Shown: positions 50,430 through 63,995, counted from the stretch's first letter. The stretch is DNA of 64,000 nt from Minisyncoccota bacterium (GCA_030583745.1 CP129473.1:616211-680210), one strand, 5' to 3'. Notes: a model not told the origin generated them from the letters alone. A program made the numbers and translations.

Positions 50430-50978
50430 ATGTCTTTTGAATCTCCAATTTCAAGAAAAGAGCCAATCAGGAAAGTTAATATTGAGGGGGGTGTGAGTAA
50501 GGAAGAGCACGATCTTGTGGTTGGCATTTGCATTACTCGCTTGGCAAAAAACAAAGAAGGAGAAGGAGAGGAGGTGACGGAATATCTCTTGGTGCAAAGA
50601 GATCCACCTGATGGTCCATGGTATTTTCCTGGCGGAAAAGTGCATCAAGGAGAAACTATGAAAGACGCGCTTAAAAGAGAGCTTGAAGAAGAGGTGGGTT
50701 TAAAGTATGAGGAAGATTACTCCGGACCATTTAGAGATTTAACTTCAGGTTCTTACAATATAGAAGGCAAAAATTTTGCGATTGTTAATGTTTCTATTCC
50801 CCGAGATTCCATTAAAAAAGAACCGAAATTACAAAGCGATGACAAAGTCCAAAAAATGATCTGGACCAAAGACCCTTTAAGTCTAGATTTAATACCGCAG
50901 ACGAGAGAAATTTTAGAGGCAAAGATGAAGGGGGAAACAAATTTACCAAAAAGTAAGATGAAGAATGTGAAAAACTAA
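50430..50978 (+). CDS. NUDIX hydrolase
   Basis: Nudix box GGKVHQGETMKDALKRELEEEVGL. Confidence 0.85.
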   Translation: MSFESPISRKEPIRKVNIEGGVSKEEHDLVVGICITRLAKNKEGEGEEVTEYLLVQRDPPDGPWYFPGGKVHQGETMKDALKRELEEEVGLKYEEDYSGPFRDLTSGSYNIEGKNFAIVNVSIPRDSIKKEPKLQSDDKVQKMIWTKDPLSLDLIPQTREILEAKMKGETNLPKSKMKNVKN

Positions 50979-51174
50979 TTATACATATTTTCAATTCTAG
51001 AGTTTTCGTATATAACAAATTTACAAATATAGTCCCTCGGGACTCTGCCCTCAACAATTCGGGCAGGCGGCGGGGCAACTTATTTTCGCTCGGGCGGATC
51101 AGCAGGAGGAGGTGAGGGGGAGGAATGCCGAGCCGCCCACCAAATGGTTGGTCAAAAACCGAGAGGTCTAATTC

Positions 51175-51250
51175 TGGAGCCGACCCGGGGACTTGAACCC
51201 CGCACCTACGGTTTACGATACCGTTGCTCTACCAGATGAGCTAGGTCGGC
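51175..51250 (-). tRNA. tRNA-Thr(CGU) with an encoded CCA
   Basis: Acceptor gccgacc/ggtcggc; D-arm gctc-atctggta-gagc; anticodon stem acggt/accgt with loop aTCGTAa; T-arm cgggg-ttcaagt-ccccg; discriminator U plus CCA. Confidence 0.9.
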
Positions 51251-51298
51251 AGTGTTTCTACTATAAACTAAAAACTACCGACCACAAACCATTTCGGA

Positions 51299-51545
51299 GT
51301 CCCTATTGTACTCCGCTCGAACCTATTTTAGCAAAAATACCGAATGACCTGCCACGCGCCGCGCGCGTGGCGATGCGATACCAAATCGTACGCATTGGAG
51401 TTCGTGATGACTCTCAAACGCCGCCCAGCGCCTCCGCATCCGCTCCGGCGCTCCGCCCTCGCCCCGTTTCCGCTCTCATACTTTTCTTTTTTCGCGGGGG
51501 GATTTTTCAAAAATTGAATGGGCGGAAAACGGGGCTCGGTCGGCC
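51299..51545. repeat. IR1-L: a 247-bp GC-rich repeat that is identical, in inverted orientation, to 61304-61552
   Basis: The overlapping frame-translations are identical (82 aa SPYCTPLEPILAKIPNDLPRAARV...KTGLGR on opposite strands, and the 60-aa MKNPPAKKEK... ORF duplicated at 51328-51510 and 61343-61525). Confidence 0.9.
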
Positions 51546-52120
51546 TTCACCTAGGAAGGTGAAGGTGGGACGGCTTCCCATGCGGTGCCTCGTGACTTAT
51601 TCCTGTTTATATTGGCGTTCATGGTTAAAGGGATGGCACCCTCGGCATCCGCCTCGGGCTATTTCCGCTAGGGCTACGAGCGCCTAAATGCCTATGTGCG
51701 CTGCTTTTCCTCGCACTCCCGCTCTGCGGAGCGGGCGCTCGGGCAGCGCCTCTGTTTGGGGGAGAAAACGATTTTCTCCCCCAGCTTCAGGCTCCTCCTC
51801 GCAGTGGTTCACCAGAGTCTTCAGTGCTTAATTGTGTTTGTCTTTTGCACGCGCTTTGTGGCTTCGTTTAACGTGCCTTCGGAGTCCGCCTTCGCACAAC
51901 CCCCTCTTTTAGTTTTCATCCTTTCGTTTAGAGTGTCGCTTCCGCTACTAAACTTCTGTGACTTCGGTGTTCGTCGGCGCTCGTCCTTTAGCCCTGGACG
52001 CTCCTAGTGGAAATAGCCCGAGGCGCTGCCTTATGTGCTTGCCTGGCCGTGTTCACGGCTCCCACCCGTGCGCGCACAAACCCCGCCCGCTGACGCGGGC
52101 GGGGTTGCCTTATACTTTTT
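51546..52120. other. GC-rich, apparently non-coding structured region (candidate large ncRNA or a remnant of the element adjacent to IR1-L)
   Basis: No convincing ORF. Long-range complementarity 'gcctcgggctatttccgctagg' (51651-51672) against 'cctagtggaaatagcccgaggc' (52003-52025). An 11-bp perfect hairpin gggggagaaaa-cga-ttttctccccc at 51759-51783 and a terminal 10-bp hairpin ccccgcccgc-tgac-gcgggcgggg at 52081-52104. Confidence 0.5.
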
Positions 52121-52123
52121 AAG

Positions 52124-53923
52124 TTAAATCTCTTCTACTATCGGGACGCCTAAAATAGAAAGTCCGTTTTTTATTACTATTCCAACAGATTTTGTTAGTG
52201 CAAGCTTGTAATTTTCTCTCGGAGAACCGTCAAGGATCGGTTCTTTGGCATACCATGAATTAAAAGCAGAGCATATTTCTAGCAAGTATTGAGCAATGCC
52301 ATGCACAGATAAATCTGATCTGGCCATCTTAATGACGTCTGGTAAAAACAGAAGGAGCCACAGGAGCCTTTTTTCATCTTTCTGGTCATTGAAAATAAAT
52401 TTGGAAAAATCATGGGTATCTTTCGCCACTTCTTTTTTGCGTAAAATTGACTGAGTTCGAACGTATGTATACAAAATATAGATTCCAGAGTCACCTGATG
52501 TCTCTATTGATTTCTCGGTATCAAATGTAATGTCCTGTGTTCGATCCGGCTTAAGTAGAGCAAACTTTACTGAAGCAATTGCCAGACGTTCGGAAAGTTC
52601 TTCCATTATTTCTGAATCCACCTTACCTTCATTAAGAAAACGTTGATGGATCTTTTCTTTGACCTGATCAATCACATCATCAATAAGCACAACCGTGCCT
52701 TCTCTTGAAGACATTTTCTTAAACCCACCTGATTCTCCCTTCAGACCGACATACCCATAAGGAATATGTGTGAAATCATGAATGTCCCCGATACCCAACT
52801 GTTCACACACTGCAAAAAGCTGCTTCATGGCCAGAGATTGTTCTGGACCAATTACCCATACCAATTTATCGGCGCCATAACGGTTCTTTTTAAGAACAGT
52901 GAGAGCAATGTCCTGAGTGATATATAGAGATGTTCCGTCTCTCTTTAGTAATATCGTGTCTGAGATGTTATAAGCGGATAAATCGGTCAATATCGCACCA
53001 TCCTCTAATTGCTTAAAAATACCTTCCTTGAGACCGCGTTCAACATACTCTTTACCAGATTGATAATGCTCATGTTCATGCCATATAACATCCCAGTGAT
53101 TTTCTAACCGTGAAAGCGTTCTATTCATTCCTTCATATGCGTAGTTAAGAACATGAGACCAGAGATTCCATATTTGCTCATTATGATTTTCCCATTCGAC
53201 AACAAAGTTACGGACTTTATTCTCCACTTCAGAAGATTGTTTGAAATCGCTCTCTCCCAACACATAGCATTTGGTGACGAATAAATCAGGCTTTATCCCA
53301 ATTTCTGACGGAGCAAGCCATTCATCCTTATGAGAAATCCAGTAAGTAACATCGATTGGTAAATCATCTTTCTTTCTCATATGCGCAAGAAATCCCCACA
53401 TTAATTTTGCGATAGCTATACCGCGATTGTTATCCACCGCATCAGACACAACAGATGCTCCGTTCCATTTCAATAACCGAACAAGTCCCATGCCGACCAA
53501 ATTATTACGCAAGTGACCCAAATGCATTGCTTTGTTTGGGTTTGGGGATGTGTGTTCAACCACCCACTTTTCTCCAGATAAGTCAGTATTACTTCCAAAG
53601 CCTGATCCTTGATTTAAAATATCCTTAAGAAGACTGCTAAAAAAATCTTCGGAAAAAGTTATATTAATAAACCCTGGTTTTATTACTTCAATCGTTTTAA
53701 CATCTTTTATTTTTCTTGATAAAAGATGTCCGGCTATCTTATTCGCTAAAGCAAACGGGCTGATCTTTGCATTTTTTGAATATTTAAGAGCAATATTGCA
53801 CGTAACATCTCCCATTTCTTGACTCGGTGTCCTATCCAAACTCACCGCCGAAGTACTGATTTCAAAATCAGTAATACATTTTGCTATTTCAGATCGAATT
53901 GTTGCTAATGTCTTCGAATACAT
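52124..53923 (-). CDS. argS: Arginine--tRNA ligase
   Basis: HIGH motif HLGHLRNNLVGMG, class I Rossmann fold and a DALR anticodon-binding C-terminus. Confidence 0.92.
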   Translation of the reverse strand: MYSKTLATIRSEIAKCITDFEISTSAVSLDRTPSQEMGDVTCNIALKYSKNAKISPFALANKIAGHLLSRKIKDVKTIEVIKPGFINITFSEDFFSSLLKDILNQGSGFGSNTDLSGEKWVVEHTSPNPNKAMHLGHLRNNLVGMGLVRLLKWNGASVVSDAVDNNRGIAIAKLMWGFLAHMRKKDDLPIDVTYWISHKDEWLAPSEIGIKPDLFVTKCYVLGESDFKQSSEVENKVRNFVVEWENHNEQIWNLWSHVLNYAYEGMNRTLSRLENHWDVIWHEHEHYQSGKEYVERGLKEGIFKQLEDGAILTDLSAYNISDTILLKRDGTSLYITQDIALTVLKKNRYGADKLVWVIGPEQSLAMKQLFAVCEQLGIGDIHDFTHIPYGYVGLKGESGGFKKMSSREGTVVLIDDVIDQVKEKIHQRFLNEGKVDSEIMEELSERLAIASVKFALLKPDRTQDITFDTEKSIETSGDSGIYILYTYVRTQSILRKKEVAKDTHDFSKFIFNDQKDEKRLLWLLLFLPDVIKMARSDLSVHGIAQYLLEICSAFNSWYAKEPILDGSPRENYKLALTKSVGIVIKNGLSILGVPIVEEI

Positions 53924-54006
53924 ATTTGTGTTAATTAACCCATCTTAACAGAAAAATAGCTAATAATAAATGGAATAATCTGGTTTTATCAAGTATTATT
54001 AAAATA

Positions 54007-55407
54007 ATGAAAACCCACAATTTTCTTATCGCTACAACAAGACCAGAACTGATCGTTCGACAAGTCAATGCCTTTATAAAAGTGAGAAATGGAAGGCAGA
54101 TAAATTTTTATATATTTGATGATAGTTATGACAAGAAAGAATACTTTTTAAGAGAAATTTCTAAGCTACCTAAGGACGAGGCGTGGGTGAAAGTCTTTTA
54201 TTTTAGCCTTGACCAACAGAAGGCAATGCTTCTGGACACTGCACGCAAATACTCCTTAAAACTTCATGTATCAGGAGAAGAAATACTGAAGTGTTTTGAG
54301 GAGAAAAATGAATTGCGGGGTATTAGAAGTATTCAAAACAAATCTATCCTGATCTTCTATTTAAAAAACAATCAAAACAACAGTATTATCCATAAAATTG
54401 ATGACGATATTCTACCATACGAAGCTGACAGACGAAATGGTCGCGTAGAAATAATTCCTAAATACGACTTCTTTCAACATAAGGAAAATGTCATAGGTCA
54501 TGACAAAAAAGTAATCTGCGGAAGTAACTATACTATTGATTCACCGAGTCCATTGGTGCACTATGCGGATTTTGCAGAGTTTGTATATAAGTTTCTTACT
54601 ATAGCTAAAACAAAAACGGAATCCGAATTGGTTGGAGAAAATACAGTCACCATCTCACCTTCTCAGGCGGAAGAGGTATTAGATATCCACAACATTGTTA
54701 AGCTATTACCAATAGGCAAAAATCATACTTTTGGAAGCGCTCTCAGGGAACTTGAAAATCATATAAATTTTTTTAATAAAGGAATCTCAAGAGTTGTTAT
54801 AAATGATAATCGTCTACAGGAAAAAGGGACTAATAAATTCTTTCCGGGTGGTTGCGTTTCTTTTCTCTACAATAATGTCCCTACACTCACACCACTCTTC
54901 GGGAATCAAGACCTTCTATGGGAACTTTTTGAGGCGCTTGATGGAAAAACAATTTTCACCGATGGTTGTATTGGGCACGTAAAATCAGAATCAAATCGAT
55001 CATCTATACTTGAAGATTTAAAAGACTCTTCTTACAAGCACCAAACATCTGTAACCTATGCGGTGTTCAGCCATTTAGTTAGTAAAAATAGAGACGGTTC
55101 TCTGCATGATTTTGAAAAGAATTTTGTACATTTAATGAATAAGTGGTTAGAGGAAGCACGAGATTACACAAAAGATATACTACGTATATTAAACCATGAA
55201 GATGGTCTTTGGTTTCGTTCCGTTCAATACAGAAATGTTCTAAATAACTTAAAAGTTATTCTGAATGAATTTGAAAAATCTTATGAAGAAATAAAATCAA
55301 ATTTCTCTTATTCAAATATAGATGCTGATCGAATCGTTACAGATTATTTTCAAAAGAAGGGCATTTTCGATAAGTTGTTAAAACAAATCATCTCCGAACA
55401 TGTTTAG
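54007..55407 (+). CDS. Hypothetical protein (466 aa), possibly a glycosyltransferase accessory or nucleotide-sugar transferase-like
   Basis: Lies in the glycosyltransferase cluster; no clear motif. Confidence 0.5.
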   Translation: MKTHNFLIATTRPELIVRQVNAFIKVRNGRQINFYIFDDSYDKKEYFLREISKLPKDEAWVKVFYFSLDQQKAMLLDTARKYSLKLHVSGEEILKCFEEKNELRGIRSIQNKSILIFYLKNNQNNSIIHKIDDDILPYEADRRNGRVEIIPKYDFFQHKENVIGHDKKVICGSNYTIDSPSPLVHYADFAEFVYKFLTIAKTKTESELVGENTVTISPSQAEEVLDIHNIVKLLPIGKNHTFGSALRELENHINFFNKGISRVVINDNRLQEKGTNKFFPGGCVSFLYNNVPTLTPLFGNQDLLWELFEALDGKTIFTDGCIGHVKSESNRSSILEDLKDSSYKHQTSVTYAVFSHLVSKNRDGSLHDFEKNFVHLMNKWLEEARDYTKDILRILNHEDGLWFRSVQYRNVLNNLKVILNEFEKSYEEIKSNFSYSNIDADRIVTDYFQKKGIFDKLLKQIISEHV

Positions 55408-56080
55408 CATCATCATACCAGTACATAACTCATTAAAAATTCTCTCAGAGAATCTGAAAAATATTTGCTCCCAGATTGAGGCGTCTGATGAGATTATTGT
55501 AGTTGACGATAAGAGTGATAATGCGATTGAAATCAAAGAATTGGCCTATAGCTATAATGCAAAATATTATTACATCAATCCACATTCAACATATAATCGA
55601 TGTCTGGCAATAAATACGGGAGTTAAAAATGCCAGTAATAAATGGATCGTGGAATTAGATCAGGATAAAATACCAAATAGTAACGATTATTTTAAAGCTA
55701 TACGCGAGGAAATATCAAAGAATGATGACTATAAAATCGTCAGGTTTGGACACACCACAAACCACTTTCCAATCGAAATCAAATTGAAATACATAGATAA
55801 AAACAATAAGGCGACCTTCAATGCAATAGTAGGAGGCAATACTTGCTATTCCAAGCAACTTTTTAATGAAGTTGGTGGATACGACACTAAATTTGATGGC
55901 AACAAAGGATTCCAAGATTTCGATCTTTTCTATCGTTTTCAAAAACATGGCGCCAAACTATGTTATATAAAATCAATGCTCGCAGATCATGTGGATTCTC
56001 ACCAAAAAACAAACCAGATGTACAAGAAAAATATGTCTAGATTTTTTAATAAACATGGGTTTTATCCAGAGGTCGACTGA
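55400..56080 (+). CDS. Glycosyltransferase family 2
   Basis: FSIIIPVHNS...IIVVDDKSDN (GT-A DxD). Confidence 0.85.
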   Translation: MFSIIIPVHNSLKILSENLKNICSQIEASDEIIVVDDKSDNAIEIKELAYSYNAKYYYINPHSTYNRCLAINTGVKNASNKWIVELDQDKIPNSNDYFKAIREEISKNDDYKIVRFGHTTNHFPIEIKLKYIDKNNKATFNAIVGGNTCYSKQLFNEVGGYDTKFDGNKGFQDFDLFYRFQKHGAKLCYIKSMLADHVDSHQKTNQMYKKNMSRFFNKHGFYPEVD

Positions 56081-56092
56081 ATGAAATAAACT

Positions 56093-57268
56093 ATGAAGCG
56101 TAAATCACTACTTATCCTCGCACCGCCTGTGCCGCCACACCACATAGGGGGCGATGGAAAATTTGCGCTTGATATCGCTACTGAATTAAGCAGGAGGGGT
56201 CAGAAAGTCACTATCTTAACCCCGTTTTATAATGGCAGTTTTATAGATGAGCGACCTAACGATTTTTTAAGAATAATCAGAGTCCCGATCAGTGATCCGC
56301 TCAGTAAAGACCCATGGGACGTGCCTATTTGGGATCCAGAATTTACAATAGGAAGAGACAAGGTTCTTTTGGAGCATATAAGAAACCTTAATCTAATAAA
56401 TAAAGATGTGTGGGTTCATGAGATAGGCGGGTCTATTTACAATCGGTTACTACTTACTTTAAAAAACCAGGAAGAACTGTTTTACAGTTGTCACATACAG
56501 ATTGTCTTAGAAAATTACGATAAACTCATACCAAATAACAGGGATTTGAAAAAGCTTACTCTTGAGTCGCAACGATTGCTTATTAAAAATGCTTCGATGG
56601 TGTTCTTTTTATCAAAATTTGATTTCATACCATTTCAATACGATGTTAAAGACTACCGAATAGTTCCTAATGGAGTTGAGCTATCCAAATTTGTTTTTAA
56701 AAAGCAAGTTGAAAGAGATGCGTGGTATCGCATCTTTATCGGAGGAAGGTTGCATGACAAAATGAAAGGAGCGACAGAAATGTTCCCGATCCTTAATATG
56801 ATTTTAGAAAAAGAAAAAATGGTTGAATTGCATGTCTGTGCTCCCGATAAAACGTACTTCGAGCACTTCAGCGCTGAAGCAATGAAGCATGTTCATTACC
56901 ATGGATGGATTTCAGTCCAAAAAACTCAAGAGATTATAGGACGCTGTGATTTAAGCCTCGTACCATCTCTTTATGAGCCGTTTGGATTACTTGCCCTTGA
57001 GTCTCTAGCAAACGGCATACCAGTACTTGGTACAAAGACCGGAGGATTATCGGAGATGATAATACCAAATACCAATGGGGACTTTATAGATACGCAATAT
57101 CCAAATAAAGTGAAAACTATACTCGAGTATTACATATCACGCAAAAATAATTTACAACAACGAGATATTCAAGACAGTATCAGGAGGACGGTCGAAAAAT
57201 ATGATATCAAAAATATTGCTAATCTCTATATTAATAATCTCGGAGAATTTCAAGCGTCTGAATGTTAG
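56093..57268 (+). CDS. Glycosyltransferase family 4 (GT-B)
   Basis: EPFGLLALESLANGIPVLGTKTGG (the E-x7-E region). Confidence 0.85.
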   Translation: MKRKSLLILAPPVPPHHIGGDGKFALDIATELSRRGQKVTILTPFYNGSFIDERPNDFLRIIRVPISDPLSKDPWDVPIWDPEFTIGRDKVLLEHIRNLNLINKDVWVHEIGGSIYNRLLLTLKNQEELFYSCHIQIVLENYDKLIPNNRDLKKLTLESQRLLIKNASMVFFLSKFDFIPFQYDVKDYRIVPNGVELSKFVFKKQVERDAWYRIFIGGRLHDKMKGATEMFPILNMILEKEKMVELHVCAPDKTYFEHFSAEAMKHVHYHGWISVQKTQEIIGRCDLSLVPSLYEPFGLLALESLANGIPVLGTKTGGLSEMIIPNTNGDFIDTQYPNKVKTILEYYISRKNNLQQRDIQDSIRRTVEKYDIKNIANLYINNLGEFQASEC

Positions 57269-58179
57269 ACATCTGCTACAAACTTCTTACGGAATCTATT
57301 TCTTAGCTTTATTAGCGATGGAAACAAAAATTCAGGACGCACAATGGCACGTTTTACATACATCCAGAGACTTTCCATGCGGCCAAAATGCCTTATTAAA
57401 ACTTTATGTTCTTCAGTTTTTCTAGTTCCTTGTTCTCTAATTTCCGCTAAAGAATTTTGGTGTATTCGATATCCAGCAGTGACTTCTGGTATATAGCCTA
57501 TCTTTGTGTTAACAATTTTTGCATATTCAAACGAAGAAAGCGCGATGTCCACATCCTCAGCGCACCCAATATTAGGATCAAATGGTCCATCAAAACCATA
57601 ACGTCTTTTAACCCACAAGGTTAATCCTTCCAAAAAGTCTTTCCTCCAACACATGGTCGGATATGGCATCTTGCCAAAAATCCAAAAATTCTTGTATGCC
57701 CTTTGAGGGTTAAGAGCTTTCCAAACAAGGCGACCAGGGATATCATTATCGAAAAAAATAAAAGCATCAGAATAGCCAAAAGAAAATTGATTTTTCTCCA
57801 TAAAAGATAATCTCAAACCGAGATTGGTAACGAGATCATCAGAATCAGTGAATGAAATATATTTATGGTTGGAAATATCAATACCTGCTATATTTTTATG
57901 CTTGAGGCATAACTCTATTGCATAGTTTCTTGCATTTGTCGAACTTAGTGGTTCTGCATGAGACTTTTCTCTTCTGATCACTCTTCGCGTTGGATGGTCG
58001 GCATATTTTTTGCTTAATACCGAGTACATATCATCAGTGCTTCCATCGTCGACGATTAAATGGAAAAGATTGTCGAGATTTTGCGAATCAACTGATTGTA
58101 TTGTTTGTTCAAGATATTGGCGTCTATTTAGAAACCTCTGATCTCCAGACCGAGAATAATATGTGGTAATTAGAATCAT
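57265..58179 (-). CDS. Glycosyltransferase family 2
   Basis: ILITTYYS...HLIVDDGSTDD. Confidence 0.85.
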   Translation of the reverse strand: MILITTYYSRSGDQRFLNRRQYLEQTIQSVDSQNLDNLFHLIVDDGSTDDMYSVLSKKYADHPTRRVIRREKSHAEPLSSTNARNYAIELCLKHKNIAGIDISNHKYISFTDSDDLVTNLGLRLSFMEKNQFSFGYSDAFIFFDNDIPGRLVWKALNPQRAYKNFWIFGKMPYPTMCWRKDFLEGLTLWVKRRYGFDGPFDPNIGCAEDVDIALSSFEYAKIVNTKIGYIPEVTAGYRIHQNSLAEIREQGTRKTEEHKVLIRHFGRMESLWMYVKRAIVRPEFLFPSLIKLRNRFRKKFVADV

Positions 58180-60449
58180 AAAGAATTGATAATTTTCTCA
58201 AGCAACTTTTCTAGATATTCAAGGTGCCCAGAAAAATCAGAGTCAGATGTGTGAGGATTTCCTATTGTAACCCCCAGAACACGCAATTTTTGCTTACTAG
58301 GAATAATTTTCTCCGTGACATCGATAATGTCAAAAGTGTGTATGCACATGTAGCCCTCCGTATACGTCAGATTGTGAAGTGATTGGTTGATTTGGTTTAT
58401 TAATGAAGAGTCGAAAGTGATGTCTGGATAGTGTGATTGAAGTTTTTCTGGTGAAATAGAGAAAACTACACTATTTAGCTCAACATTATTAAGAGCGATG
58501 AAGTACTTCGATTCATTCATTGTTATAGACCACTTTTTTGCTAGGCTGAAGCGGTAATCCACCAACTCTCCCACACCATCAACACCAAGATGCTTCATGA
58601 AGAACCATAATTTTAAACTATCGAATGGTCTGCTCCCTAAAAATGGTGTTATCTGCCCCAAATCAAATGAACCCTTTTGAATAGTAATATCTGTGGATTT
58701 ACTAATCAGCTGAAGGTCGGCTAGATCTCTAAAGAGTATTGCGCTTGAGGAATATGGTATACCCAACCCCTTGTGTGGATCGATACTGATTGAATCAGCC
58801 ATTTCAATTCCTTGCATTTTCGCCTTTAAATTTTTTGAAAACAAGGCCACACCGCCATGACACGCATCGACATGTAGCCATACACTATGTTTTCTTGTAA
58901 TCAGTGCTATTTTCTCAAAATTTTCGATGGTAGTTGTTCTCGAATCACCAGCTTGTGCTACCACCGCAACTACTTTTGATGTTTTACTATTGTTGTATGT
59001 AACGAGCTTTGTTTCCAAATCATCATAATCAAGACGGTAATCATTAAGCATATTTATCTTCACAATATTCTCTTCCCCCAAACCGAGCCACCAGAATGCG
59101 GCTATATGAGAATAATGATAAATGGTATCGCCGGTAATGAGTAAGATCGGCTTTATATTTGATTCTGTTAAACCTTGCTTTCGTGATTCTGGAAAAACCT
59201 TACAACGAGCAACTAAAAGTCCGATGGTATTTGCAAGAGTACCACCAGTAACCATCACTCCTCCCACATCCAAAGCATTTCCAGGGATTTCTTTTGGATT
59301 CGCAAAACCAATAAGCTGGCGAAGCCAGTGAATAACCTGCACTTCGACAAAAGTCCCGGTTGGTGCGCTCTTAGCAGTTGCTATAAGATTCTGATTTGTA
59401 AAACACTCTAAAATACTTGCCGCCAATGCGGATGTGGCATTTCCAGAATCAGGAAAAGCTAAATAATTTGGAGATGATTGTCTTATTGAACCATCAAGTA
59501 TTTTTGTTTGATATTCTGATATAACTTGCTCCAAAGCCTGACCTTTCTCAGGGATATTCTCTAACAGATTTGCTTGAACTTTTTGTTCCGGATAAAAATT
59601 TAAAACTTTATGGTGATTATTGGTAATAAAATCAACACCGATATCTAAGCACTTTCTAAAAACCTTTTCCCCATATTCCTTGCCAATATCGCCAAGAAAC
59701 TTACTCTTTAAATCAAACTCAGATTTATCTGTTAATCTATTTAATGAGTTGATAGCATTGGATCTTCGCACGGTATATTTGTTTTCTGAAATAAGCACTA
59801 AGCCCTGCTGTTCGAGTTTCGATAGTATCAGCGGTAGATGCCTATCCAGATATTGTCTCGTGTAATTTGTATTGCAGAAACCCAAATATTCTTTGCCCTC
59901 ATCTAATAATCGGGTTATTATTTCTTGCTGATCAAAAGTATCTTTGCTACCGGATAACAACAGTAACAGTATGATAGATTGAAGACATCTGGTTTTTAAT
60001 TCCTCAAAACTTGCCGGGTCGCCTATAATCAACTGACTGGGACCAGCGCAAGCACTCAACCATTGTCTATACTCGTTGAATGTTGTCCACTCATTCGCGG
60101 CAAGAGGTAAAATCTCTACATGTTTTTGATCGTAAGTAAATCCGTATCCAGCTATTGCTTTTTCCAACTCAGAACGAGTAATAAACTCACCCGGGTAATG
60201 TTCATCAGGAATAAGTGCATAATCAACGTGAAACTGGATAAAGAATTCCTTAAACTCGTCAACCTTAGATTGAATTAAACTTCCGTCTTTGAAGATAAGT
60301 AATAAATCAATATCACTCGCTGGTTTGTTCTCAAGGCGAGCTCGGGAACCAAAAATAACTGCATATTCAACCTCAGTCGGAAACTGTTCCATTATCTTAT
60401 TCGAAAGAGTATGGATTAATTCGTCTTGATTTTCTATGTTGAACATCAT
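58176..60449 (-). CDS. Fusion protein: N-terminal Pol-beta-type nucleotidyltransferase domain plus C-terminal PLP-dependent group II decarboxylase-like domain
   Basis: NTase motif VIFGSRARLENKPASDIDLLLIF. The PLP-binding Lys sits in SISIDPHKGLGIPYSSSAILF, in a fold-type I decarboxylase (DDC/GAD-like) region. Confidence 0.75.
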   Translation of the reverse strand: MMFNIENQDELIHTLSNKIMEQFPTEVEYAVIFGSRARLENKPASDIDLLLIFKDGSLIQSKVDEFKEFFIQFHVDYALIPDEHYPGEFITRSELEKAIAGYGFTYDQKHVEILPLAANEWTTFNEYRQWLSACAGPSQLIIGDPASFEELKTRCLQSIILLLLLSGSKDTFDQQEIITRLLDEGKEYLGFCNTNYTRQYLDRHLPLILSKLEQQGLVLISENKYTVRRSNAINSLNRLTDKSEFDLKSKFLGDIGKEYGEKVFRKCLDIGVDFITNNHHKVLNFYPEQKVQANLLENIPEKGQALEQVISEYQTKILDGSIRQSSPNYLAFPDSGNATSALAASILECFTNQNLIATAKSAPTGTFVEVQVIHWLRQLIGFANPKEIPGNALDVGGVMVTGGTLANTIGLLVARCKVFPESRKQGLTESNIKPILLITGDTIYHYSHIAAFWWLGLGEENIVKINMLNDYRLDYDDLETKLVTYNNSKTSKVVAVVAQAGDSRTTTIENFEKIALITRKHSVWLHVDACHGGVALFSKNLKAKMQGIEMADSISIDPHKGLGIPYSSSAILFRDLADLQLISKSTDITIQKGSFDLGQITPFLGSRPFDSLKLWFFMKHLGVDGVGELVDYRFSLAKKWSITMNESKYFIALNNVELNSVVFSISPEKLQSHYPDITFDSSLINQINQSLHNLTYTEGYMCIHTFDIIDVTEKIIPSKQKLRVLGVTIGNPHTSDSDFSGHLEYLEKLLEKIINSL

Positions 60450-60454
60450 AGTAT

Positions 60455-61261
60455 TTATTTATGCAATTCACTATTTAACTTCTCGACGAGAAACCCATGT
60501 AGATGGCCGTTACTTAAAATAGCTCCTTTTATTGGACAATCATAACGTTGATCTTCACCAAATAAGTCCGTTACCTTACCACCAGCCTCTTCAATAATAA
60601 TCTTTAGTGGAGCAATATCGTACAAAGTATCCCACCAAAATATCACCGCATCCGCTTTCCCCATAGCCAGATAAGAGCAGTGTTCTGAAAAAGAATAGAA
60701 ATCAAGATAATACTTCGCGTCTTTTATAATATCTTTAATGAATGCACTGGGGGCATATAGTGCATTTTTATCATACAGACCAAAAATCTTTGCATCGCTA
60801 ATGGATCTAGTATCTGATATAAATATTTGATCGCATTTTTGATAGTTAGTGATTTTAGTCTTAAACGCACCACCACCCTTAAACGCAAAAAGTATTCGGT
60901 TTAAAATAGGATTTGCAACCACACCAAGCACTGGGGCGCCATCATCCAGTAGGCCTACTGATATTGTCCAGTTCGCTGAACCCATTACGAATGCGTCTGT
61001 TCCATCTATCGGATCAATAACCCATTGGAAATTAGAATTTTTCTTGAGAGAGATTTCTTCTCCCAAAACACCTTCTCCGGGATATTTTATGCTTATTTCG
61101 CTAATAAATTTTTTATTTAGGAAAACATCCAATTCTGTCACTAATGAGCCATCATTCTTTGAGTGATTATCATTATTACCATTATTAAAATGCTCCAGAG
61201 CCTTGTTTGCATTTGACGAAATAAACTTGAGCAGAAAATCAAGTCTATTATTTAGTTCCAT
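60455..61261 (-). CDS. Inositol monophosphatase / 3'(2'),5'-bisphosphate nucleotidase family protein
   Basis: Motifs WVIDPIDGT and WDxxA (FWWDTLYDIAP). Confidence 0.85.
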   Translation of the reverse strand: MELNNRLDFLLKFISSNANKALEHFNNGNNDNHSKNDGSLVTELDVFLNKKFISEISIKYPGEGVLGEEISLKKNSNFQWVIDPIDGTDAFVMGSANWTISVGLLDDGAPVLGVVANPILNRILFAFKGGGAFKTKITNYQKCDQIFISDTRSISDAKIFGLYDKNALYAPSAFIKDIIKDAKYYLDFYSFSEHCSYLAMGKADAVIFWWDTLYDIAPLKIIIEEAGGKVTDLFGEDQRYDCPIKGAILSNGHLHGFLVEKLNSELHK

Positions 61262-61303
61262 GGAATGTAATCTAGCGTAAAATTACTTTATTTTCAAGAA
61301 ATT

Positions 61304-61552
61304 TTAGGCCCGACCGAGCCCCGTTTTCCGCCCATTCAATTTTTGAAAAATCCCCCCGCGAAAAAAGAAAAGTATGAGAGCGGAAACGGGGCGAGGGCGG
61401 AGCGCCGGAGCGGATGCGGAGGCGCTGGGCGGCGTTTGAGAGTCATCACGAACTCCAATGCGTACGATTTGGTATCGCATCGCCACGCGCGCGGCGCGTG
61501 GCAGGTCATTCGGTATTTTTGCTAAAATAGGTTCGAGCGGAGTACAATAGGG
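61304..61552. repeat. IR1-R: inverted copy of the 247-bp repeat
   Basis: See IR1-L; identity ends at the same 'ctcggtcgg' boundary. Confidence 0.9.
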
Positions 61553-61554
61553 AC

Positions 61555-61655
61555 TCAAGAATCAAACTCAACTGCTTTTTAGGGGCAGAAGTTTTGGCGG
61601 CGCGAAGCGCCGCATAAGGGGGGATGGGATTTCCGCGCGCTTCGCGCGCGTGAAG
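61555..61655. repeat. IR2-a: a ~100-bp GC-rich repeat, inverted relative to 63307-63410
   Basis: Identical 33-aa translation HAREARGNPIPPYAALRAAKTSAPKKQLSLILE on opposite strands. It contains the palindromic core 'cgcgcgcgaagcgcgcg'. Confidence 0.9.
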
Positions 61656-61920
61656 GAGGTTCAGAAAATTCTGATCCGAAAATTTTGGAGGGAGGATCAA
61701 AAGGCAGCTCTGCAAGTTTATGTGTGTTTACCCCACCCGCCCGTGCGCACACACCAATCATCGCCGTTTTTGCGGAGACATTATAAAACGGCGATGATTG
61801 CTCCCATGGAAAGTGCTATACTTTAAGTGCAATCAATCCGACAGGTCGTCTTTCCTAATGGCCGTCCCAGACAGTTCAAGGCGACTTGGATTGATTGCAC
61901 CGGGGCGGCCATTTAAGTTT

Positions 61921-63468
61921 ATGAAATATTTTCTATACGCTAGAAAATCTACTGATGTCGAGGACAAGCAAGTGCTTTCTATTGAAGCACAGCTTTCAGA
62001 GTTGAGAATTATTGCCAGAAATCAGGAGTTGGAAATTTTAGAAGAGTTTATTGAAAAACGAAGTGCAAAATCTCCAGGCCGCCCCACGTTCGGCGACATG
62101 ATGGCGCGGATTCAAAAGGGCGAAGCGAATGGCATTATTTGTTGGAAGGTAGACCGCCTCGCGAGAAATCCCGTGGATGGCGGACAAGTGCAGTGGCTTT
62201 TGCAGCAAGGTGTCATTCGCCACATTCAAACACACGACCGCTCGCACTATCCGAACGACAATGTGTTGATGATGTCCGTCGAGCTCGGGATGGCGAACGA
62301 GTACATACGCCAACTCTCCGCAAACACAGCACGGGGATTGCGGCAAAAAGCGAGGCAAGGAATTTATCCCGGACTCGCCCCTATCGGTTACATAAATGAT
62401 CCGCGCACCAAAACCATCCGCGTTCACAAGAAAAATGCCGCGCTGGTGCGCGAAATGTTTGAAAAGTACGCAAGCGGAAGCGCAACGCTCGACGGCCTCG
62501 CGACTTTTCTTGAAAACGCAGGCGTAATATCAAAAGGAAATCGTCGCGTCCATATCTCGCGCATCTCGTTCATTTTGCAAAATCCATTTTATTACGGACA
62601 CTTCCGCTACGCGGGCGAAGTGTACGAGGGAAATCACATGTCTCTCATTTCAAAAGCACTGTACGACAAGGCGAACGCAGTGCTTCGCGGACGTGGCCGG
62701 ACACTCGCCGTCAAAACCGATCCTGCGCCATACTGCGGACTCCTGCGTTGCGGCTTCTGCGGCATGGCAATCACGGCCGAGATGAAAGAGAAGCATCAGA
62801 AGAACGGGAATGTTCATCGCTACACATATTACCGATGTACACGCAAGAACAAGGCCGTGAGATGCAAAGAAGCGCCGATGCGAAGCGAGCTTTTGGACTC
62901 GCAACTTTCGGCGCTTCTTTCCGAATACACCATGTCGCAGGAGTGGGTATCTCCACTTTCGGAGATGCTGAATACAGAAGCCGCTAACGCTTCCAAAACG
63001 GCGGCGGAGGCCGTTCAAGAACTGCGAGACAAGTGCGAAAACATTTCTCGGCAAATAACGCGCTTGACGGACTTGTATGTTGCCGAGGACATCGAGCGCG
63101 AAGATTACTTGTCTCGCAGGCGTTCTCTTATGTCGGAACGCCGGACGATAGAAGAAAATATCGTCCGTCTTGAACGAGCCCCCGCTTTATGGGTTGAACC
63201 TGTCCGAAATTGGATAACGGACGCTTCAACACTGGACAAAATCGCGCAAGCGGAAGACCTCCTTTTGAAAAAATCATCCCTCCAAAAAATTTTCGGATTG
63301 AACCTCTCAATTCACGCGCGCGAAGCGCGCGGAAATCCCATCCCCCCTTATGCGGCGCTTCGCGCCGCCAAAACTTCTGCCCCTAAAAAGCAGTTGAGTT
63401 TGATTCTTGAGCCAACGGTCGGAATTGAACCGACGACCTCGCCCTTCGCTTTTACCCCTGTTTCCTAG
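61921..63468 (+). CDS. Large serine recombinase (resolvase/invertase catalytic domain, recombinase domain, zinc ribbon and coiled-coil)
   Basis: YARKSTDVEDKQVLSIEAQ holds the catalytic Ser; zinc ribbon CGLLRCGFCG...YYRC. The gene is GC-rich, about 55%. The ORF's last ~55 codons run through IR2-b and the antisense tRNA 3' exon, so the real stop is uncertain. Confidence 0.85.
   Translation: MKYFLYARKSTDVEDKQVLSIEAQLSELRIIARNQELEILEEFIEKRSAKSPGRPTFGDMMARIQKGEANGIICWKVDRLARNPVDGGQVQWLLQQGVIRHIQTHDRSHYPNDNVLMMSVELGMANEYIRQLSANTARGLRQKARQGIYPGLAPIGYINDPRTKTIRVHKKNAALVREMFEKYASGSATLDGLATFLENAGVISKGNRRVHISRISFILQNPFYYGHFRYAGEVYEGNHMSLISKALYDKANAVLRGRGRTLAVKTDPAPYCGLLRCGFCGMAITAEMKEKHQKNGNVHRYTYYRCTRKNKAVRCKEAPMRSELLDSQLSALLSEYTMSQEWVSPLSEMLNTEAANASKTAAEAVQELRDKCENISRQITRLTDLYVAEDIEREDYLSRRRSLMSERRTIEENIVRLERAPALWVEPVRNWITDASTLDKIAQAEDLLLKKSSLQKIFGLNLSIHAREARGNPIPPYAALRAAKTSAPKKQLSLILEPTVGIEPTTSPFAFTPVS
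63307..63410. repeat. IR2-b: copy of the 100-bp repeat that ends exactly at the tRNA-Thr(GGU) 3' end
   Basis: Identity with 61555-61655 (inverted) stops at 63410, which is the discriminator position of the minus-strand tRNA. Confidence 0.9.
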
Positions 63469-63691
63469 AAGCTTATCAGGGGGCTAGACTGTATCTTAGA
63501 CTTATTCGTAATTGTGAACTTAGTCTCCCTTGTCAGTCGTTCGGGCCTCCCAATTAAATTAACTGAGATGCCACGGTCTTAACCAAGCTCTGGTCTTTAA
63601 CCGTTATTCAGGATTCTCTAAAAGATTTCTCTTTTAGAGGGCAGAAATGCTTTCTACCATGGGCGTGCTCTACCAACTGAGCTACGTTGGC
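63410..63691 (-). tRNA. Intron-containing tRNA, most consistent with tRNA-Thr(GGU)
   Basis: The 5' exon reads gccaacg-ta-gctc-agttggta-gagc-a-cgccc-auggu. The 3' exon reads aa-gggcg-aggtc-gtcgg-ttcaatt-ccgac-cgttggc-u. The acceptor and anticodon stems are perfectly complementary across a 209-nt insertion in the anticodon loop. Confidence 0.75.
63447..63655 (-). ncRNA. Candidate group I intron (~209 nt) in the tRNA anticodon loop between positions 36 and 37
   Basis: The 5' splice site follows a U that forms a U-G pair within a P1 hairpin (GGU|AGAAA gca UUUCUGCC). P2 is a 9-bp hairpin (CUCUAAAAG...CUUUUAGAG). A P7-like pair AGACUA / AGUCUAG is present. The intron ends in G (..AAAAGCG|AA). An A-rich bulged P4-P6-like hairpin is also present. 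Confidence 0.55.
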
Positions 63692-63789
63692 GCATTAAAT
63701 TAATGCGTGGCTAAATCCTATTATATAAAATCACTTTTTTCAACACTTTTTCATGTTAAAATCAAAACTACGATCAGGAAATTGAGGCG

Positions 63790-63995
63790 CTCCTGCTTAT
63801 GCTCCCATGCCTCCCGCCAAAGAAGGCTTCGGCCTGAAAGATGGAAACAGGGTAAAGCGGATTAGATACCCGCTGTGGGTGGGTTGAATTCCCACCGTTA
63901 ACACTTTGTACCCCTGTATCTCCCGCCCGAAAGGGAAACCGGCGGCCCCGTTTAGCGGGGAGCCCTCACGCACGAAAAAGTGCGAGAGGGTTTTT
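63790..63995 (+). ncRNA. Candidate GC-rich structured RNA ending in a strong terminator
   Basis: Nested helices (acagggta...tacccctgt; gcgg-attagatac-ccgc; ggtggg-ttgaatt-cccacc) and a terminator 'ccctcacgcac gaaaaa gtgcgagaggg' plus TTTTTT. It contains only a 12-codon ORF. Confidence 0.35.

What the first reader, a model, noticed from the sequence alone, without database searches (positions are those of the whole stretch)
51175..63691. tRNA-Thr-bounded composite island: nested perfect inverted repeats, a GC-rich large serine recombinase, and AT-rich glycosylation cargo
Two tRNA-Thr genes, CGU at 51175-51250 and intron-containing GGU at 63410-63691, both on the minus strand, bracket a ~12-kb region. 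GC-rich modules sit at both ends of that region, so their base composition is foreign to the host. At the left end is a 247-bp repeat, IR1-L, plus a 570-bp non-coding structured segment. At the right end are the inverted, 100%-identical IR1-R and a second perfect inverted-repeat pair of ~100 bp, IR2. The IR2 pair flanks a large serine recombinase gene. IR2-b ends at precisely the tRNA 3' discriminator base. That is the classic signature of tRNA-targeted integration. Between the IR1 copies lies 9.8 kb of host-like AT-rich DNA: argS, four glycosyltransferases, a nucleotidyltransferase-decarboxylase fusion and an IMPase. The exact identity of both repeat pairs argues for recent or ongoing recombination. 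That could be programmed inversion of the surface-glycan locus and/or of the recombinase gene itself. Alternatively, two copies of an element may have inserted in inverted orientation.
Basis: partly seen in the sequence, partly recalled or inferred. Interest (0 to 1): 0.85.

Follow-up and report, generated by a model that had tools for sequence, protein, structure and literature searches.

The report
Recombinase island splitting tandem tRNA genes
The region is a 12-kb genomic island inserted between two threonine tRNA genes by a serine recombinase; it belongs to a large, apparently undescribed family in the tiny 'candidate phyla radiation' bacteria whose repeat layout makes its segments invertible and which often carries a conserved structured non-coding element of unknown function.

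Summary
The repeats, both tRNA-Thr genes and an intact large serine recombinase (LSR) are real. The repeats are not nested. IR1-R and IR2-a abut, sharing 3 nt (CTC), and form one 345-bp X|Y unit.

The three junctions are b'|X' (51297), X|Y (61555) and Y'|tRNA (63410). They share one core and alternate in orientation. They read as attR, an intact inverted attP and attL. The implied attB is a tandem tRNA-Thr(GGU)-tRNA-Thr(CGU) pair, which relatives still have intact.

This is a family trait of Patescibacteria. 501 relatives were found among species genomes. The LSR gene nearly always reads into a convergent tRNA 3' end, and an inverted copy of its own 3' end lies upstream. A second repeat pair abutting that copy was seen in 13 of 29 loci with enough upstream sequence. 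Cargo varies between genomes.

Near-identical strains of two relatives carry such segments in opposite orientations. It is unresolved whether the LSR or homologous recombination flips them.

The 570-bp GC-rich stretch contains a conserved structured element with strong covariation and no Rfam match.

The cargo is compositionally atypical, not host-like. Inversion or excision in this genome is untested.

The parts
51175..51250 (-). tRNA-Thr(CGU). In the inferred ancestral state it was the downstream partner of a tandem tRNA-Thr pair.
   Evidence: ARAGORN and Rfam. Tandem GGU->CGU pairs are intact in L032, L035, L051, L055, L058 and L140.
51251..51296 (-). b' arm: the 46-nt spacer upstream of tRNA-Thr(CGU). 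Inferred to be the right half of attB.
   Evidence: Sequence; att reconstruction.
51297..51299 (.). Junction S_A core (GAG on the + strand), between b' and X'. attR-type.
   Evidence: The junction is present in independent Logan contigs L011 and L013.
51297..51543 (+). X' (IR1-L), a 247-nt arm. It carries a promoter-like TTGCTA-18-TACAAT on the minus strand (51334-51305) that faces the core and tRNA-Thr(CGU).
   Evidence: The core-proximal ~70 nt are conserved across loci.
51544..52110 (+). G: GC-rich non-coding block. Its core (about 51638-52025) is a conserved structured element closed by a long-range helix. A GCTTGCCC.ACCC...GCGCAC-type motif and a hairpin follow it.
   Evidence: Fold z-score -7.8. 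Homologues at 75-94% identity in 16 LSR loci and 58 metagenome loci. Covariation: 96% of cells paired against 40-52% when slid; 0 of 500 shuffles reach the observed score. No Rfam match.
52124..61261 (.). Cargo (segment 2): argS (52124-53923, -), 466-aa unknown protein (54007-55407, +), GT2 (55400-56080, +), GT4 (56093-57268, +), GT2 (57265-58179, -), nucleotidyltransferase-PLP decarboxylase fusion (58176-60449, -), IMPase (60455-61261, -).
   Evidence: Pfam and NCBIfam. Atypical composition. Not shared with any related locus.
61310..61556 (+). X (IR1-R). The same promoter-like site (61519-61548, +) here points across the core towards Yc and the LSR gene.
61554..61556 (.). Junction S_B core (CTC): an intact X|Y, attP-type site, inverted relative to S_A and S_C.
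   Evidence: The same abutment (3-7 nt overlap) occurs in L017, L020, L031, L032, L037, L046, L058, L073, L091 and L148.
61554..61654 (+). Yc (IR2-a): non-coding inverted copy of the LSR 3' end. A degenerate continuation runs to about 61710.
   Evidence: It is closer to the Yc copies of other loci than to their coding copies.
61655..61920 (+). LSR upstream region, with a CCCACCC...GCGCAC motif (about 61733-61760) and a conserved 74-nt leader hairpin (61827-61900).
   Evidence: 95% identity to L081; z-score -3.2.
61921..63468 (+). Large serine recombinase, 515 aa, intact, with Ser10 in the RKST motif. The last 19 codons are antisense to the tRNA.
63311..63411 (+). Yr' (IR2-b): the coding 3' end of the LSR gene, equal to the P'-type arm.
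63409..63411 (.). Junction S_C core (GAG), between Yr' and the tRNA. attL-type. It covers tRNA positions 72-74.
63410..63691 (-). tRNA-Thr(GGU). Exons 63691-63656 and 63446-63410. A 209-nt group I-like intron (63655-63447) sits in the anticodon loop after U36 and ends in G.
   Evidence: Homologous split tRNAs occur in L015, L030, L031 and L043.

Best explanation
The 12.1 kb from 51297 to 63411 is an integrated genomic island of a Patescibacteria-wide family built around a large serine recombinase (LSR).

SHOWN
- The island lies between two tRNA-Thr genes that are adjacent in tandem in other species.
- Its three junctions share one 3-nt core and alternate in orientation. They are b'|X' (attR-type), X|Yc (an intact attP-type site, inverted) and Yr'|tRNA (attL-type).
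- The two 'inverted repeat pairs' are therefore the two arms (X and Y) of one att-type site that is present twice.
- Y is the 3' end of the LSR gene itself, so the ORF crosses the crossover point.
- This layout, and its placement at tRNA 3' ends, recur across hundreds of species with unrelated cargo. The cargo includes defence systems, metal resistance and restriction-modification genes; here it is argS plus glycosylation genes.
- In relatives, X-flanked and Y-flanked segments occur in both orientations in near-identical strains.
- LSR genes occur either fused to a tRNA or fused to X'.

INFERRED
- The free form is a circle with two inverted attP copies that separate an LSR segment from a cargo segment. 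Topologically this resembles the yeast 2-micron plasmid.
- The LSR integrated the circle by attP x attB recombination at nucleotides 72-74 of tRNA-Thr(GGU).
- The remaining intact attP, together with the identical arms, lets the 1.66-kb LSR segment and the 9.8-kb cargo segment flip. In relatives it also lets the LSR module recombine with other tRNA-Thr genes and so invert chromosome segments.
- An outward-facing promoter-like site in the X arm would restore transcription of the displaced tRNA-Thr(CGU). At the internal site the same element would read towards the LSR gene.
- G is a conserved structured RNA that lies downstream of the LSR in the attP configuration. Its role is unknown.
For: ANATOMY AND ATT LOGIC
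-.
- attL = ..CCGACCGTTGG|CTC|AAGAATC..
- attP = ..AATAGGGA|CTC|AAGAATC..
- attR = ..AATAGGGA|CTC|CGAAATGG..
- Intact tandem tRNA-Thr(GGU) genes in relatives end ..GGCTC.

INDEPENDENT SUPPORT FOR THE REPEATS
- Logan contigs from several independent runs.

THE LSR
- Intact, with all three LSR domains.
- Distant from SPbeta SprA, CcrB and XisF.

FAMILY EVIDENCE
- More than 3,700 homologues, and 501 relatives among GTDB species genomes.
- In the 22-sequence alignment A1, 21 C-termini translate the antisense of a tRNA T-arm; P0019 ends earlier.
- 53 of 63 loci have a convergent tRNA at the LSR 3' end. 59 of 74 have the upstream inverted copy Yc. 13 of 29 loci with enough sequence have an X/X' pair abutting Yc.
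- prfB or tRNA-Thr(CGU) lies just outside X' in 7 loci, which marks a break in synteny.
- L024, L028 and L148 have the same layout as the window.
- Cargo is unrelated between loci and is typical island cargo.
- The cargo here is compositionally atypical.

BOTH CONFIGURATIONS EXIST IN NATURE
- 8 of 109 full-length homologues end in the X'-encoded tail SLL..ARTYF..N. That matches the tail predicted for this locus after flipping.
- G sits next to a Y'|X' junction in L131, L133, L140 and L166.

INVERSION POLYMORPHISMS
- L094 against L097.
- L168 against L170.
- In L094/L097 the LSR2 3' end is joined to tRNA-Thr(CGU) in one strain and to tRNA-Thr(UGU) in the other, at the same core.

G AND THE PROMOTER-LIKE SITE
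- G covariation.
- Promoter-like site in X.
Against: - No empty site, circular form or alternative orientation was found for this species. Short k-mer contigs cannot show orientation, because the arms are perfectly identical.
- An apparently essential argS lies inside the island, so precise excision should be lethal unless a second copy exists.
- No recombination directionality factor is recognisable here.
- The function of the internal attP copy is unknown. Canonical LSRs do not recombine attP with attL or attR.
- In both natural inversions the arms are identical for the first ~113 nt from the core. In L094/L097 the two informative SNPs (39 and 64 nt from the core) stay with the outside flank. 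This favours a crossover inside the arms, meaning homologous recombination or conversion, over one at the core.
- G is absent from some family members, for example L032.
- The X/X' pair was seen in fewer than half of the loci with 3-10 kb of upstream sequence.
- The promoter match is only 9 of 12 positions.
Confidence: 0.68

Rival explanations
1. A domesticated phase-variation switch. On this view the LSR is an invertase whose job is to flip the surface-glycan locus (and its own gene) to vary the cell surface. The element would no longer be mobile.
For: - Invertible layout with alternating cores.
- Inversions seen in relatives.
- The cargo here is glycosylation genes.
- argS inside the segment argues against excision.
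- The LSR GC content roughly tracks host GC across genomes, which suggests long residence.
Against: - Cargo is unrelated from genome to genome: defence systems, copper resistance, restriction-modification genes.
- Flipping a segment that has identical, outward-facing arms does not obviously change which genes see a promoter.
- Multiple copies occur per genome at different tRNAs (L046, L057 and L068 come from one contig).
- The tRNA target changes across the family.
- All of this is typical of a mobile element.
Confidence: 0.12
2. Two copies of a small LSR element inserted in opposite orientation, one at each tRNA-Thr. One copy later decayed, leaving X' and G on the left and X, Y and the LSR on the right. 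The DNA between them would be ordinary chromosome.
For: - GC-rich modules sit next to both tRNA-Thr genes.
- argS lies between them.
- Relatives do insert at either tRNA-Thr.
Against: - X' lies at the 5' side of tRNA-Thr(CGU), not at its 3' end where this family integrates.
- There is no LSR remnant on the left.
- X and Yc abut with a shared core, exactly as in at least 13 other genomes.
- The intervening DNA is compositionally atypical.
- The tandem tRNA pair is intact in relatives.
Confidence: 0.06
3. An assembly artefact. On this view the perfect inverted repeats, or the order of segments, were created by the metagenome assembler.
For: - The source is a metagenome-assembled genome.
- Perfect 247-nt arms exceed the read length, so the orientation of the 9.8-kb segment may have been chosen arbitrarily.
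Against: - Independent Logan assemblies break at exactly the repeat boundaries, and they contain the b'|X' junction.
- The same architecture occurs in many independently assembled genomes, including ones with diverged, resolvable arms.
Confidence: 0.03
4. A canonical LSR island in which the internal X|Yc site is an inert relic of a past intramolecular event, or merely an operator or promoter copy. All inversions would then be incidental RecA-mediated recombination between repeats.
For: - The SNP pattern in L094/L097 places the crossover more than 64 nt from the core.
- The core-proximal ~100-113 nt of the arms are homogenised, as expected from gene conversion.
- Canonical LSRs act only on attP x attB.
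- A promoter-like site in X faces the LSR gene.
Against: - Yc and its abutment to X are conserved across distant species.
- The non-coding copy forms its own lineage. That is hard to reconcile with an inert relic.
- In many loci Yc lies 1-9 kb from the LSR gene with opposite-strand genes in between, which weakens a simple operator role.
Confidence: 0.3

Closest known systems
Large serine recombinases / serine integrases of phages and integrative elements (SPbeta SprA, phiC31, Bxb1, A118, CcrAB, XisF, TnpX)
   Same: - Same three-domain protein (Resolvase, Recombinase, zinc ribbon).
- Junctions share only a 2-3-nt core, with no long direct repeats, as in attP x attB recombination.
- The gene sits at the edge of the element.
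   Different: - Only distantly related: SprA E=3e-10; CcrB and XisF models fall far below their cut-offs.
- Not found on viral contigs.
- The ORF runs through the crossover into the target tRNA.
- The element keeps a second, inverted attP-type site.
- No RDF was identified.
Tycheposons and other tRNA-targeting cargo islands (Prochlorococcus; bioRxiv 10.1101/2020.12.28.424599)
   Same: - Small cargo-carrying islands in streamlined genomes.
- Integrated at specific tRNA genes, including tRNA-Thr(GGU).
- The recombinase lineage tracks the tRNA target.
- Cargo is variable.
   Different: - Tycheposons mostly use tyrosine recombinases and leave partial tRNA copies as direct repeats.
- Here there is an LSR, a 3-nt core, inverted arm pairs and no partial tRNA.
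pTN3-type integrase-driven chromosome flipping in Thermococcales (PMC5495485) and tripartite ICEs (PMC5882170)
   Same: - An element-encoded site-specific recombinase whose att-type sites, located at tRNA genes within one chromosome, produce inversions. These inversions rearrange the genome or split the element.
   Different: - Those systems use tyrosine recombinases.
- Here the enzyme is an LSR.
- Chromosomal retargeting is inferred only from a comparison of two strains.
SSV-type archaeal integrases with attP inside the integrase ORF (PMC7253208)
   Same: - The recombination site lies within the recombinase's own reading frame, so integration changes the protein.
   Different: - SSV integrases are tyrosine recombinases, and integration splits the gene in two.
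- Here only the last ~19 codons are exchanged, and the protein stays full length in both states.
Yeast 2-micron plasmid FLP/FRT inverted repeats, and multiple-inversion systems of small serine invertases (Gin/Hin/Min)
   Same: - Two inverted copies of a recombination site divide the element into two segments that can flip.
- Adjacent invertible segments share crossover sites.
   Different: - The comparison rests on my own knowledge of those systems, not on a test here.
- The recombinase classes differ (tyrosine FLP; small serine invertases with an enhancer and Fis).
- No amplification function or shuffling of coding ends is evident here, apart from the LSR tail.

Membership tests
Large serine recombinase (serine integrase) | N-terminal resolvase catalytic domain with a serine nucleophile | tested here: met
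   PF00239, E=4.7e-21, residues 4-147. Ser10 in the RKST motif is invariant in the 22-sequence alignment.
Large serine recombinase (serine integrase) | C-terminal recombinase domain plus zinc-ribbon domain | tested here: met
   PF07508, E=8e-13. PF13408, E=1e-7. The cysteines are conserved.
Large serine recombinase (serine integrase) | att junctions share only a short central core, with no long target duplication | tested here: met
   The three junctions share GAG/CTC only; the flanks are unrelated.
Large serine recombinase (serine integrase) | Catalyses attP x attB recombination, with excision dependent on an RDF | not testable with these tools
   Needs biochemistry. No RDF-like gene is present in this island. 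Relatives carry a MerR/HTH_17 gene upstream.
tRNA-targeting integrative genomic island | Recombinase gene adjacent to a tRNA gene at one island boundary | tested here: met
   The LSR ORF overlaps tRNA-Thr(GGU) by ~58 nt. 53 of 63 related loci show the same arrangement.
tRNA-targeting integrative genomic island | Interrupts a gene order that is continuous in related genomes | tested here: met
   The tandem tRNA-Thr(GGU)-tRNA-Thr(CGU)(-prfB) order is intact, or split at the other tRNA, in other species. It was not tested within this species.
tRNA-targeting integrative genomic island | Empty site or excised circle observable in the same species | tested here: inconclusive
   The empty-site pattern is absent from JGI metagenomes. 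The exact LSR protein is on no other contig. These collections may simply not hold this organism.
tRNA-targeting integrative genomic island | Atypical composition and variable cargo | tested here: met
   composition; cargo.
Small serine invertase systems (Hin/Gin/Min) | Recombinase of ~190 aa with a C-terminal HTH, acting on short inverted sites with an enhancer | tested here: not met
   The protein is a 515-aa LSR. The layout of inverted sites is analogous only.
Group I intron (tRNA anticodon-loop type) | Match to the Rfam RF00028 covariance model at the gathering score | tested here: not met
   20.6 bits against 50, E=0.027.
Group I intron (tRNA anticodon-loop type) | Inserted in the anticodon loop; the 5' exon ends in U and the intron ends in G | tested here: met
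   Exon alignment to intact tRNA-Thr(GGU) genes..AUGGU|A...G|AAGGGC.
Any Rfam RNA family (for element G) | Covariance-model match | tested here: not met
   No family matched at E<=1 over 50900-52300 apart from spurious short hits.

The most novel reading that the evidence does not exclude
Every junction in these islands is a live LSR site. On this reading the enzyme is a combined integrase and invertase. It flips its own gene between an 'off' state (convergent with, and fused to, a tRNA) and an 'on' attP state. It also hops between tRNA genes and so drives much of the chromosome rearrangement and island turnover in Patescibacteria. The conserved structured RNA G would act as a cofactor or regulator of recombination, for example in directionality control in place of a protein RDF.
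Probability: 0.2. Interest if true: 0.85.

Novelty: new variant of a known kind. Interest (0 to 1): 0.62.

Why it matters
Patescibacteria (the candidate phyla radiation, CPR) have tiny genomes, and their mobile elements are poorly described. This work points to four things of wider interest.

1. **A very large, coherent family of integrative islands.** 501 relatives of the LSR were found among species-representative genomes. They appear to move defence, resistance and surface-glycan genes and to target tRNA 3' ends.
2. **An unusual, conserved site layout.** There are two inverted attP-type sites, and the recombinase ORF crosses the crossover point. This creates invertible segments and may rearrange chromosomes. 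I found no paper describing this family.
3. **A resource for genome engineering.** Large serine recombinases are prized tools, so a family with readable natural attP/attB pairs at conserved tRNA sequences is directly testable.
4. **A new structured non-coding element.** G is 300-400 nt long, has strong covariation and no Rfam match, and is physically linked to a recombinase.

Tried and rejected
- **Exact-protein look-up of the LSR.** Not on record, so there are no alternative assemblies of this locus.
- **Empty-site search.** The reconstructed attB pattern has no match in JGI metagenomes.
- **Phage origin.** No LSR relative and no G motif were found in 2.9 million viral contigs.
- **Known RNA for G.** Rfam at permissive thresholds found nothing. 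ORFs across X/G have no Pfam hit and look like GC-rich noise.
- **Cargo synteny.** argS and the glycosylation genes are not near the LSR in any of 79 related loci. I therefore rejected the idea of a conserved cargo or a fixed 'glycan switch'.
- **Single-cassette model.** I considered that each inverted-arm segment is an independently inserting cassette. I rejected it because integration of a circle gives cores in direct orientation, whereas adjacent cores here are inverted. Only a two-segment circle fits.
- **'Whole-arm' inversions as proof of core crossover.** I first read L094/L097 and L168/L170 this way. Closer alignment showed the arms are identical for ~113 nt from the core, and two SNPs stay with the flank. 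That claim was withdrawn.
- **Assigning P-type or B-type half-sites from motif spacing.** Too uncertain, so not used.
- **Circular free forms.** Short contigs that carry LSRs with the X'-encoded tail show no terminal overlaps.

Full report
**1. What is in the sequence**

The window comes from a bacterium: it has a tmRNA at 18046-18490. An identical LSR protein in NCBI names the source as a Candidatus Paceibacterota MAG on a 691,769-bp contig.

- ARAGORN and Rfam find tRNA-Thr(CGU) at 51175-51250 on the minus strand.
- The repeat finder gives two perfect inverted pairs. IR1 is 51297-51543 / 61310-61556, 247 nt. IR2 is 61554-61654 / 63311-63411, 101 nt.
- IR1-R and IR2-a overlap by 3 nt (CTC, 61554-61556). 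Together they form one continuous 345-bp unit, which I call X|Y. Its left part is repeated, inverted, 10 kb to the left (X'). Its right part is repeated, inverted, 1.66 kb to the right (Y'). The repeats are therefore in series, not nested.
- Between Y and Y' lies an intact 515-aa large serine recombinase (61921-63468) with Resolvase, Recombinase and Zn-ribbon domains.
- Y' is not a flank of that gene. It encodes residues ~464-497, and the ORF continues for 19 codons through the antisense of a tRNA.
- That tRNA is a split tRNA-Thr(GGU), which ARAGORN misses. Alignment with intact relatives gives exons 63691-63656 and 63446-63410 and a 209-nt intron. The intron is inserted after U36 and ends in G.
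- Rfam's group I intron model matches only weakly: 20.6 bits against a gathering score of 50.

**2. Are the repeats real?**

- Logan contigs that carry the identical argS come from several independent sequencing runs. They end exactly 30 nt (k-1) inside both IR1 arms, at window positions 51514 and 61339.
- Contigs that carry the neighbouring NUDIX gene run through the b'|X' junction and stop 30 nt into X'.
- The repeats and the left junction therefore exist in many samples.
- Because the arms are perfectly identical, no k-mer contig can tell the orientation of the enclosed segments. The orientation in the MAG is unverified.

**3. Junction logic**

Written in one orientation, the junctions are:

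| Junction | Left arm | Core | Right arm |
|---|---|---|---|
| S_A | b' ...catttcg | GAG | tccctatt... X' |
| rc(S_B) | Y' ...gattctt | GAG | tccctatt... X' |
| S_C | Y' ...gattctt | GAG | ccaacgg... tRNA |

- Identity across the three is limited to three bases. This is the pattern left by serine integrases.
- S_A and S_C have the same polarity. S_B is inverted.
- Recombining S_A with S_C on paper restores tRNA-Thr(GGU)-CTC-46 nt-tRNA-Thr(CGU), and releases a 12.1-kb circle.
- That circle carries two inverted X|Y sites, which separate an LSR segment (1.66 kb) from a G-plus-cargo segment (9.8 kb).
- Intact tandem GGU->CGU pairs exist in L032, L035, L051, L055, L058 and L140. In five of these six pairs the GGU gene ends ...GGCTC, exactly at the core; L140 ends ...CCGGCTCCA.

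**4. It is a family trait**

- The LSR has more than 3,700 homologues, essentially all from Patescibacteria. They are typically ~516 aa and 62-88% identical.
- In alignment A1, 21 of the 22 C-termini read ...LSLILEP.xGIEPxTS..., which is the antisense translation of a tRNA T-arm; P0019 ends earlier, at ..LILE-H.
- A scan of one genome per species found 501 relatives. I analysed 79 of these loci.

| Feature | Loci with it / loci with enough sequence |
|---|---|
| Convergent tRNA at the LSR 3' end | 53 / 63 |
| Inverted copy of the LSR 3' end upstream (Yc, 0.15-9 kb away, 80-100% identical) | 59 / 74 |
| Second inverted pair (X/X', 50-470 nt) whose inner arm abuts Yc | 13 / 29 |

- The tRNA is Thr for close relatives. 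For distant ones it is Asn, Gln, Glu, Leu, Ser, Phe, Gly, Arg, Ala, Val, Tyr or Ile.
- The X/Yc overlap is 3-7 nt in nine of those thirteen loci; the rest range from a 28-nt overlap (L030) to a 28-nt gap (L050, L088).
- L024, L028 and L148 have the same layout as the window. In L148 the island splits a tRNA-Leu/tRNA-Gly pair.
- The gene just outside X' is prfB in seven loci, so a conserved host order tRNA-Thr...prfB is interrupted.
- The window's non-coding Y copy is closer to other loci's non-coding copies than to their coding copies. The duplication is therefore old and maintained, not a recent accident.

**5. Cargo**

- None of the window's cargo genes occurs near the LSR in other genomes.
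- Elsewhere the segments carry AbiE, OLD-like ATPases, DUF3800, a copper-resistance set, an NgoPII restriction-modification system and helicases.
- The cargo here is argS, three Pfam-supported glycosyltransferases, a 466-aa soluble unknown protein, a nucleotidyltransferase-PLP decarboxylase fusion and an IMPase.
- Its GC is 36.5%, against a very even 40.3% for the host.
- Its tetranucleotide distance to the host is about 2.5-3.5 times that of host chunks of equal size. It is not host-like.
- No relative of the LSR or of G was found on viral contigs.

**6. Evidence that the segments flip and the module retargets**

(a) Alternative protein tails.
- Of 109 full-length homologues, about 95 have tRNA-antisense tails.
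- Eight end in SLL..ARTYF..N. This is the translation of X', and it matches the tail predicted here if the LSR segment flips (ESLLYSARTYFSKNTE).

(b) Position of G. In L131, L133, L140 and L166, G sits next to a Y'|X' junction instead of b'|X'.

(c) Strains sharing the identical LSR P0107.
- L094 reads X|Yc-DUF4238-LSR2-Yr'|tRNA-Thr(CGU).
- L097 reads tRNA-Thr(UGU)|Yr-LSR2-DUF4238-Yc'|tRNA-Thr(CGU).
- The two are 99.3-99.8% identical. The 2.8-kb segment is inverted, and the LSR2 end is joined to a different tRNA-Thr at the same core.

(d) Strains sharing P0045.
- L168 and L170 differ by inversion of a 2.6-kb X-flanked segment.
- L168/L169 show a chain of four sites and three invertible segments between two convergent tRNA-Thr genes. 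A second LSR sits in the last segment.

Caveat.
- In both natural inversions the arms are identical for ~113 nt from the core, and diverged beyond that.
- In L094/L097 the two informative SNPs stay with the flank.
- The flips may therefore be homologous recombination or gene conversion within the arms, rather than LSR crossover at the core.
- The tRNA junctions themselves are precise, and can only be site-specific.

**7. The GC-rich non-coding block (G)**

- It folds far better than shuffled sequence: z-score -7.8.
- Homologues at 75-94% identity lie just inside X' in 16 LSR loci. A motif search found 58 more metagenome loci. In total there are 66 complete copies of 300-400 nt, often at contig ends next to a repeat.
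- A 34-sequence alignment supports a 13-bp plus 9-bp closing helix and several inner hairpins.

| Measure | Observed | Control |
|---|---|---|
| Cells forming a standard pair | 96.2% | 40-52% with the 3' partner slid |
| Cells with changes on both sides | 100 | at most 33 when slid |
| Shuffles reaching the observed covariation score | 0 of 500 | - |

- Rfam has no match.
- G.U pairs slightly favour the strand that reads X'->G. In the attP configuration that is the strand downstream of the LSR. The strand is not settled.
- G is missing from some members, for example L032. Its function is unknown.

**8. Other regulatory hints**

- A promoter-like TTGCTA-18-TACAAT lies in the X arm, 5 nt from the core and facing outward.
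- At S_A it points into tRNA-Thr(CGU), 46 nt away. That tRNA was cut off from its upstream partner by the insertion.
- At S_B it points through Yc towards the LSR gene.
- This is a 9-of-12 match and is inference only.
- A 74-nt hairpin just upstream of the LSR start is conserved, at 95% identity in L081.

**9. Comparison with known systems**

- The protein is a bona fide LSR but is remote from characterised ones.
- In function, the island is closest to the following:
  - LSR integrative elements;
  - tRNA-targeting cargo islands such as tycheposons, which are mostly tyrosine-recombinase based and leave partial tRNA repeats;
  - pTN3-type integrase-driven chromosome flipping, which uses a tyrosine recombinase;
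  - SSV integrases, whose attP lies inside the ORF.
- The two inverted sites dividing a circle resemble the 2-micron plasmid topologically. That comparison is from my own knowledge.
- Six literature searches found no description of this Patescibacteria family.

**10. Verdict**

- The integration reading is well supported.
- The inversion reading is supported by relatives but untested here.
- The 'two inserted copies' and 'host-like cargo' readings are not supported.
- I rate it a new variant of a known kind: an LSR island with a conserved dual-attP invertible layout and an associated new structured element.
- Open questions are why the second attP-type site is kept, who catalyses the flips, whether this copy can still excise given argS inside it, and what G does.

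Noticed in passing
window 63775-64000 (+): A GC-rich, structured, terminator-ended element of ~200 nt lies just upstream of tRNA-Thr(GGU). It contains a hairpin GCGG-AUUAGAUAC-CCGC that mimics the 16S rRNA GGATTAGATACCC region, followed by a T-arm-like hairpin (GGGUGGG-UUGAAUU-CCCACC). Fold z-score -3.1. No Rfam hit. A similar GGATTAGATACCC hairpin sits in the tRNA-Thr spacer of L055.
   Followed up: partly
window 63447-63655 (-); also L015, L030, L031, L043: A 209-nt group I-like intron lies in the anticodon loop of tRNA-Thr(GGU). It scores below Rfam's gathering score but has the right splice-site features. The same split tRNA recurs in several other Patescibacteria next to their LSR.
   Followed up: partly
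window 61827-61900 (+): A 74-nt hairpin lies 20 nt upstream of the LSR start codon. It is 80-95% identical in distant loci (L081, L028, L042, L029, L019, L036). It could be a translational or transcriptional control element for the recombinase.
   Followed up: partly
window ~52040-52085 and ~61725-61760; L032 8233-8311 and 9887-9973; end of the Yc arm in L094: A motif of the type GCTTGCCCCACCC..CGTGCGCGCACA occurs just inside both kinds of segment, after X'/G and after Yc. It forms a direct repeat. Its function is unknown; it might be a promoter, terminator or protein-binding site.
   Followed up: no
alignment A3 columns 140-160 and ~243-254 (window ~51755-51785 and ~51905-51920): Inside G, the hairpin GGGGGAAGG/CCTTCCCCC is followed ~60 nt later by its mirror image, CCCCCTTCC. 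The mirror copy changes in step with the hairpin across loci. It is a purine/pyrimidine mirror repeat whose meaning is unclear.
   Followed up: no
L046, L057, L068 (all from contig JBAZVG010000001.1): One 813-kb Paceibacterota genome carries three family members, at tRNA-Thr(UGU), tRNA-Thr(GGU) and tRNA-Phe. Many contigs in the survey end within 2.4 kb upstream of the LSR or right at its 3' end. These islands therefore appear to be a major cause of assembly breaks in Patescibacteria MAGs.
   Followed up: partly
L030/L031 8060-9953; L046 8196-9731; L058 8142-9731; L073 9157-9966; L172 2683-4559; L104 1-7521: The space between Yc and the LSR gene, or just downstream, is a hotspot for defence and resistance genes in relatives: AbiEii/AbiEi, OLD-like AAA_15/21 ATPases, DUF3800, an NgoPII restriction-modification system and a copper-resistance cluster.
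   Followed up: partly
window 27289-27364 (+): A tRNA-Ile with a genomically encoded UAU anticodon, which is uncommon in bacteria.
   Followed up: no
window 54007-55407 (+): A 466-aa soluble protein with no Pfam or NCBIfam hit lies among the glycosyltransferases. Its N-terminus (..FYIFDDS..) looks like a GT-A fold DxD region, so it may be a divergent glycosyltransferase.
   Followed up: partly
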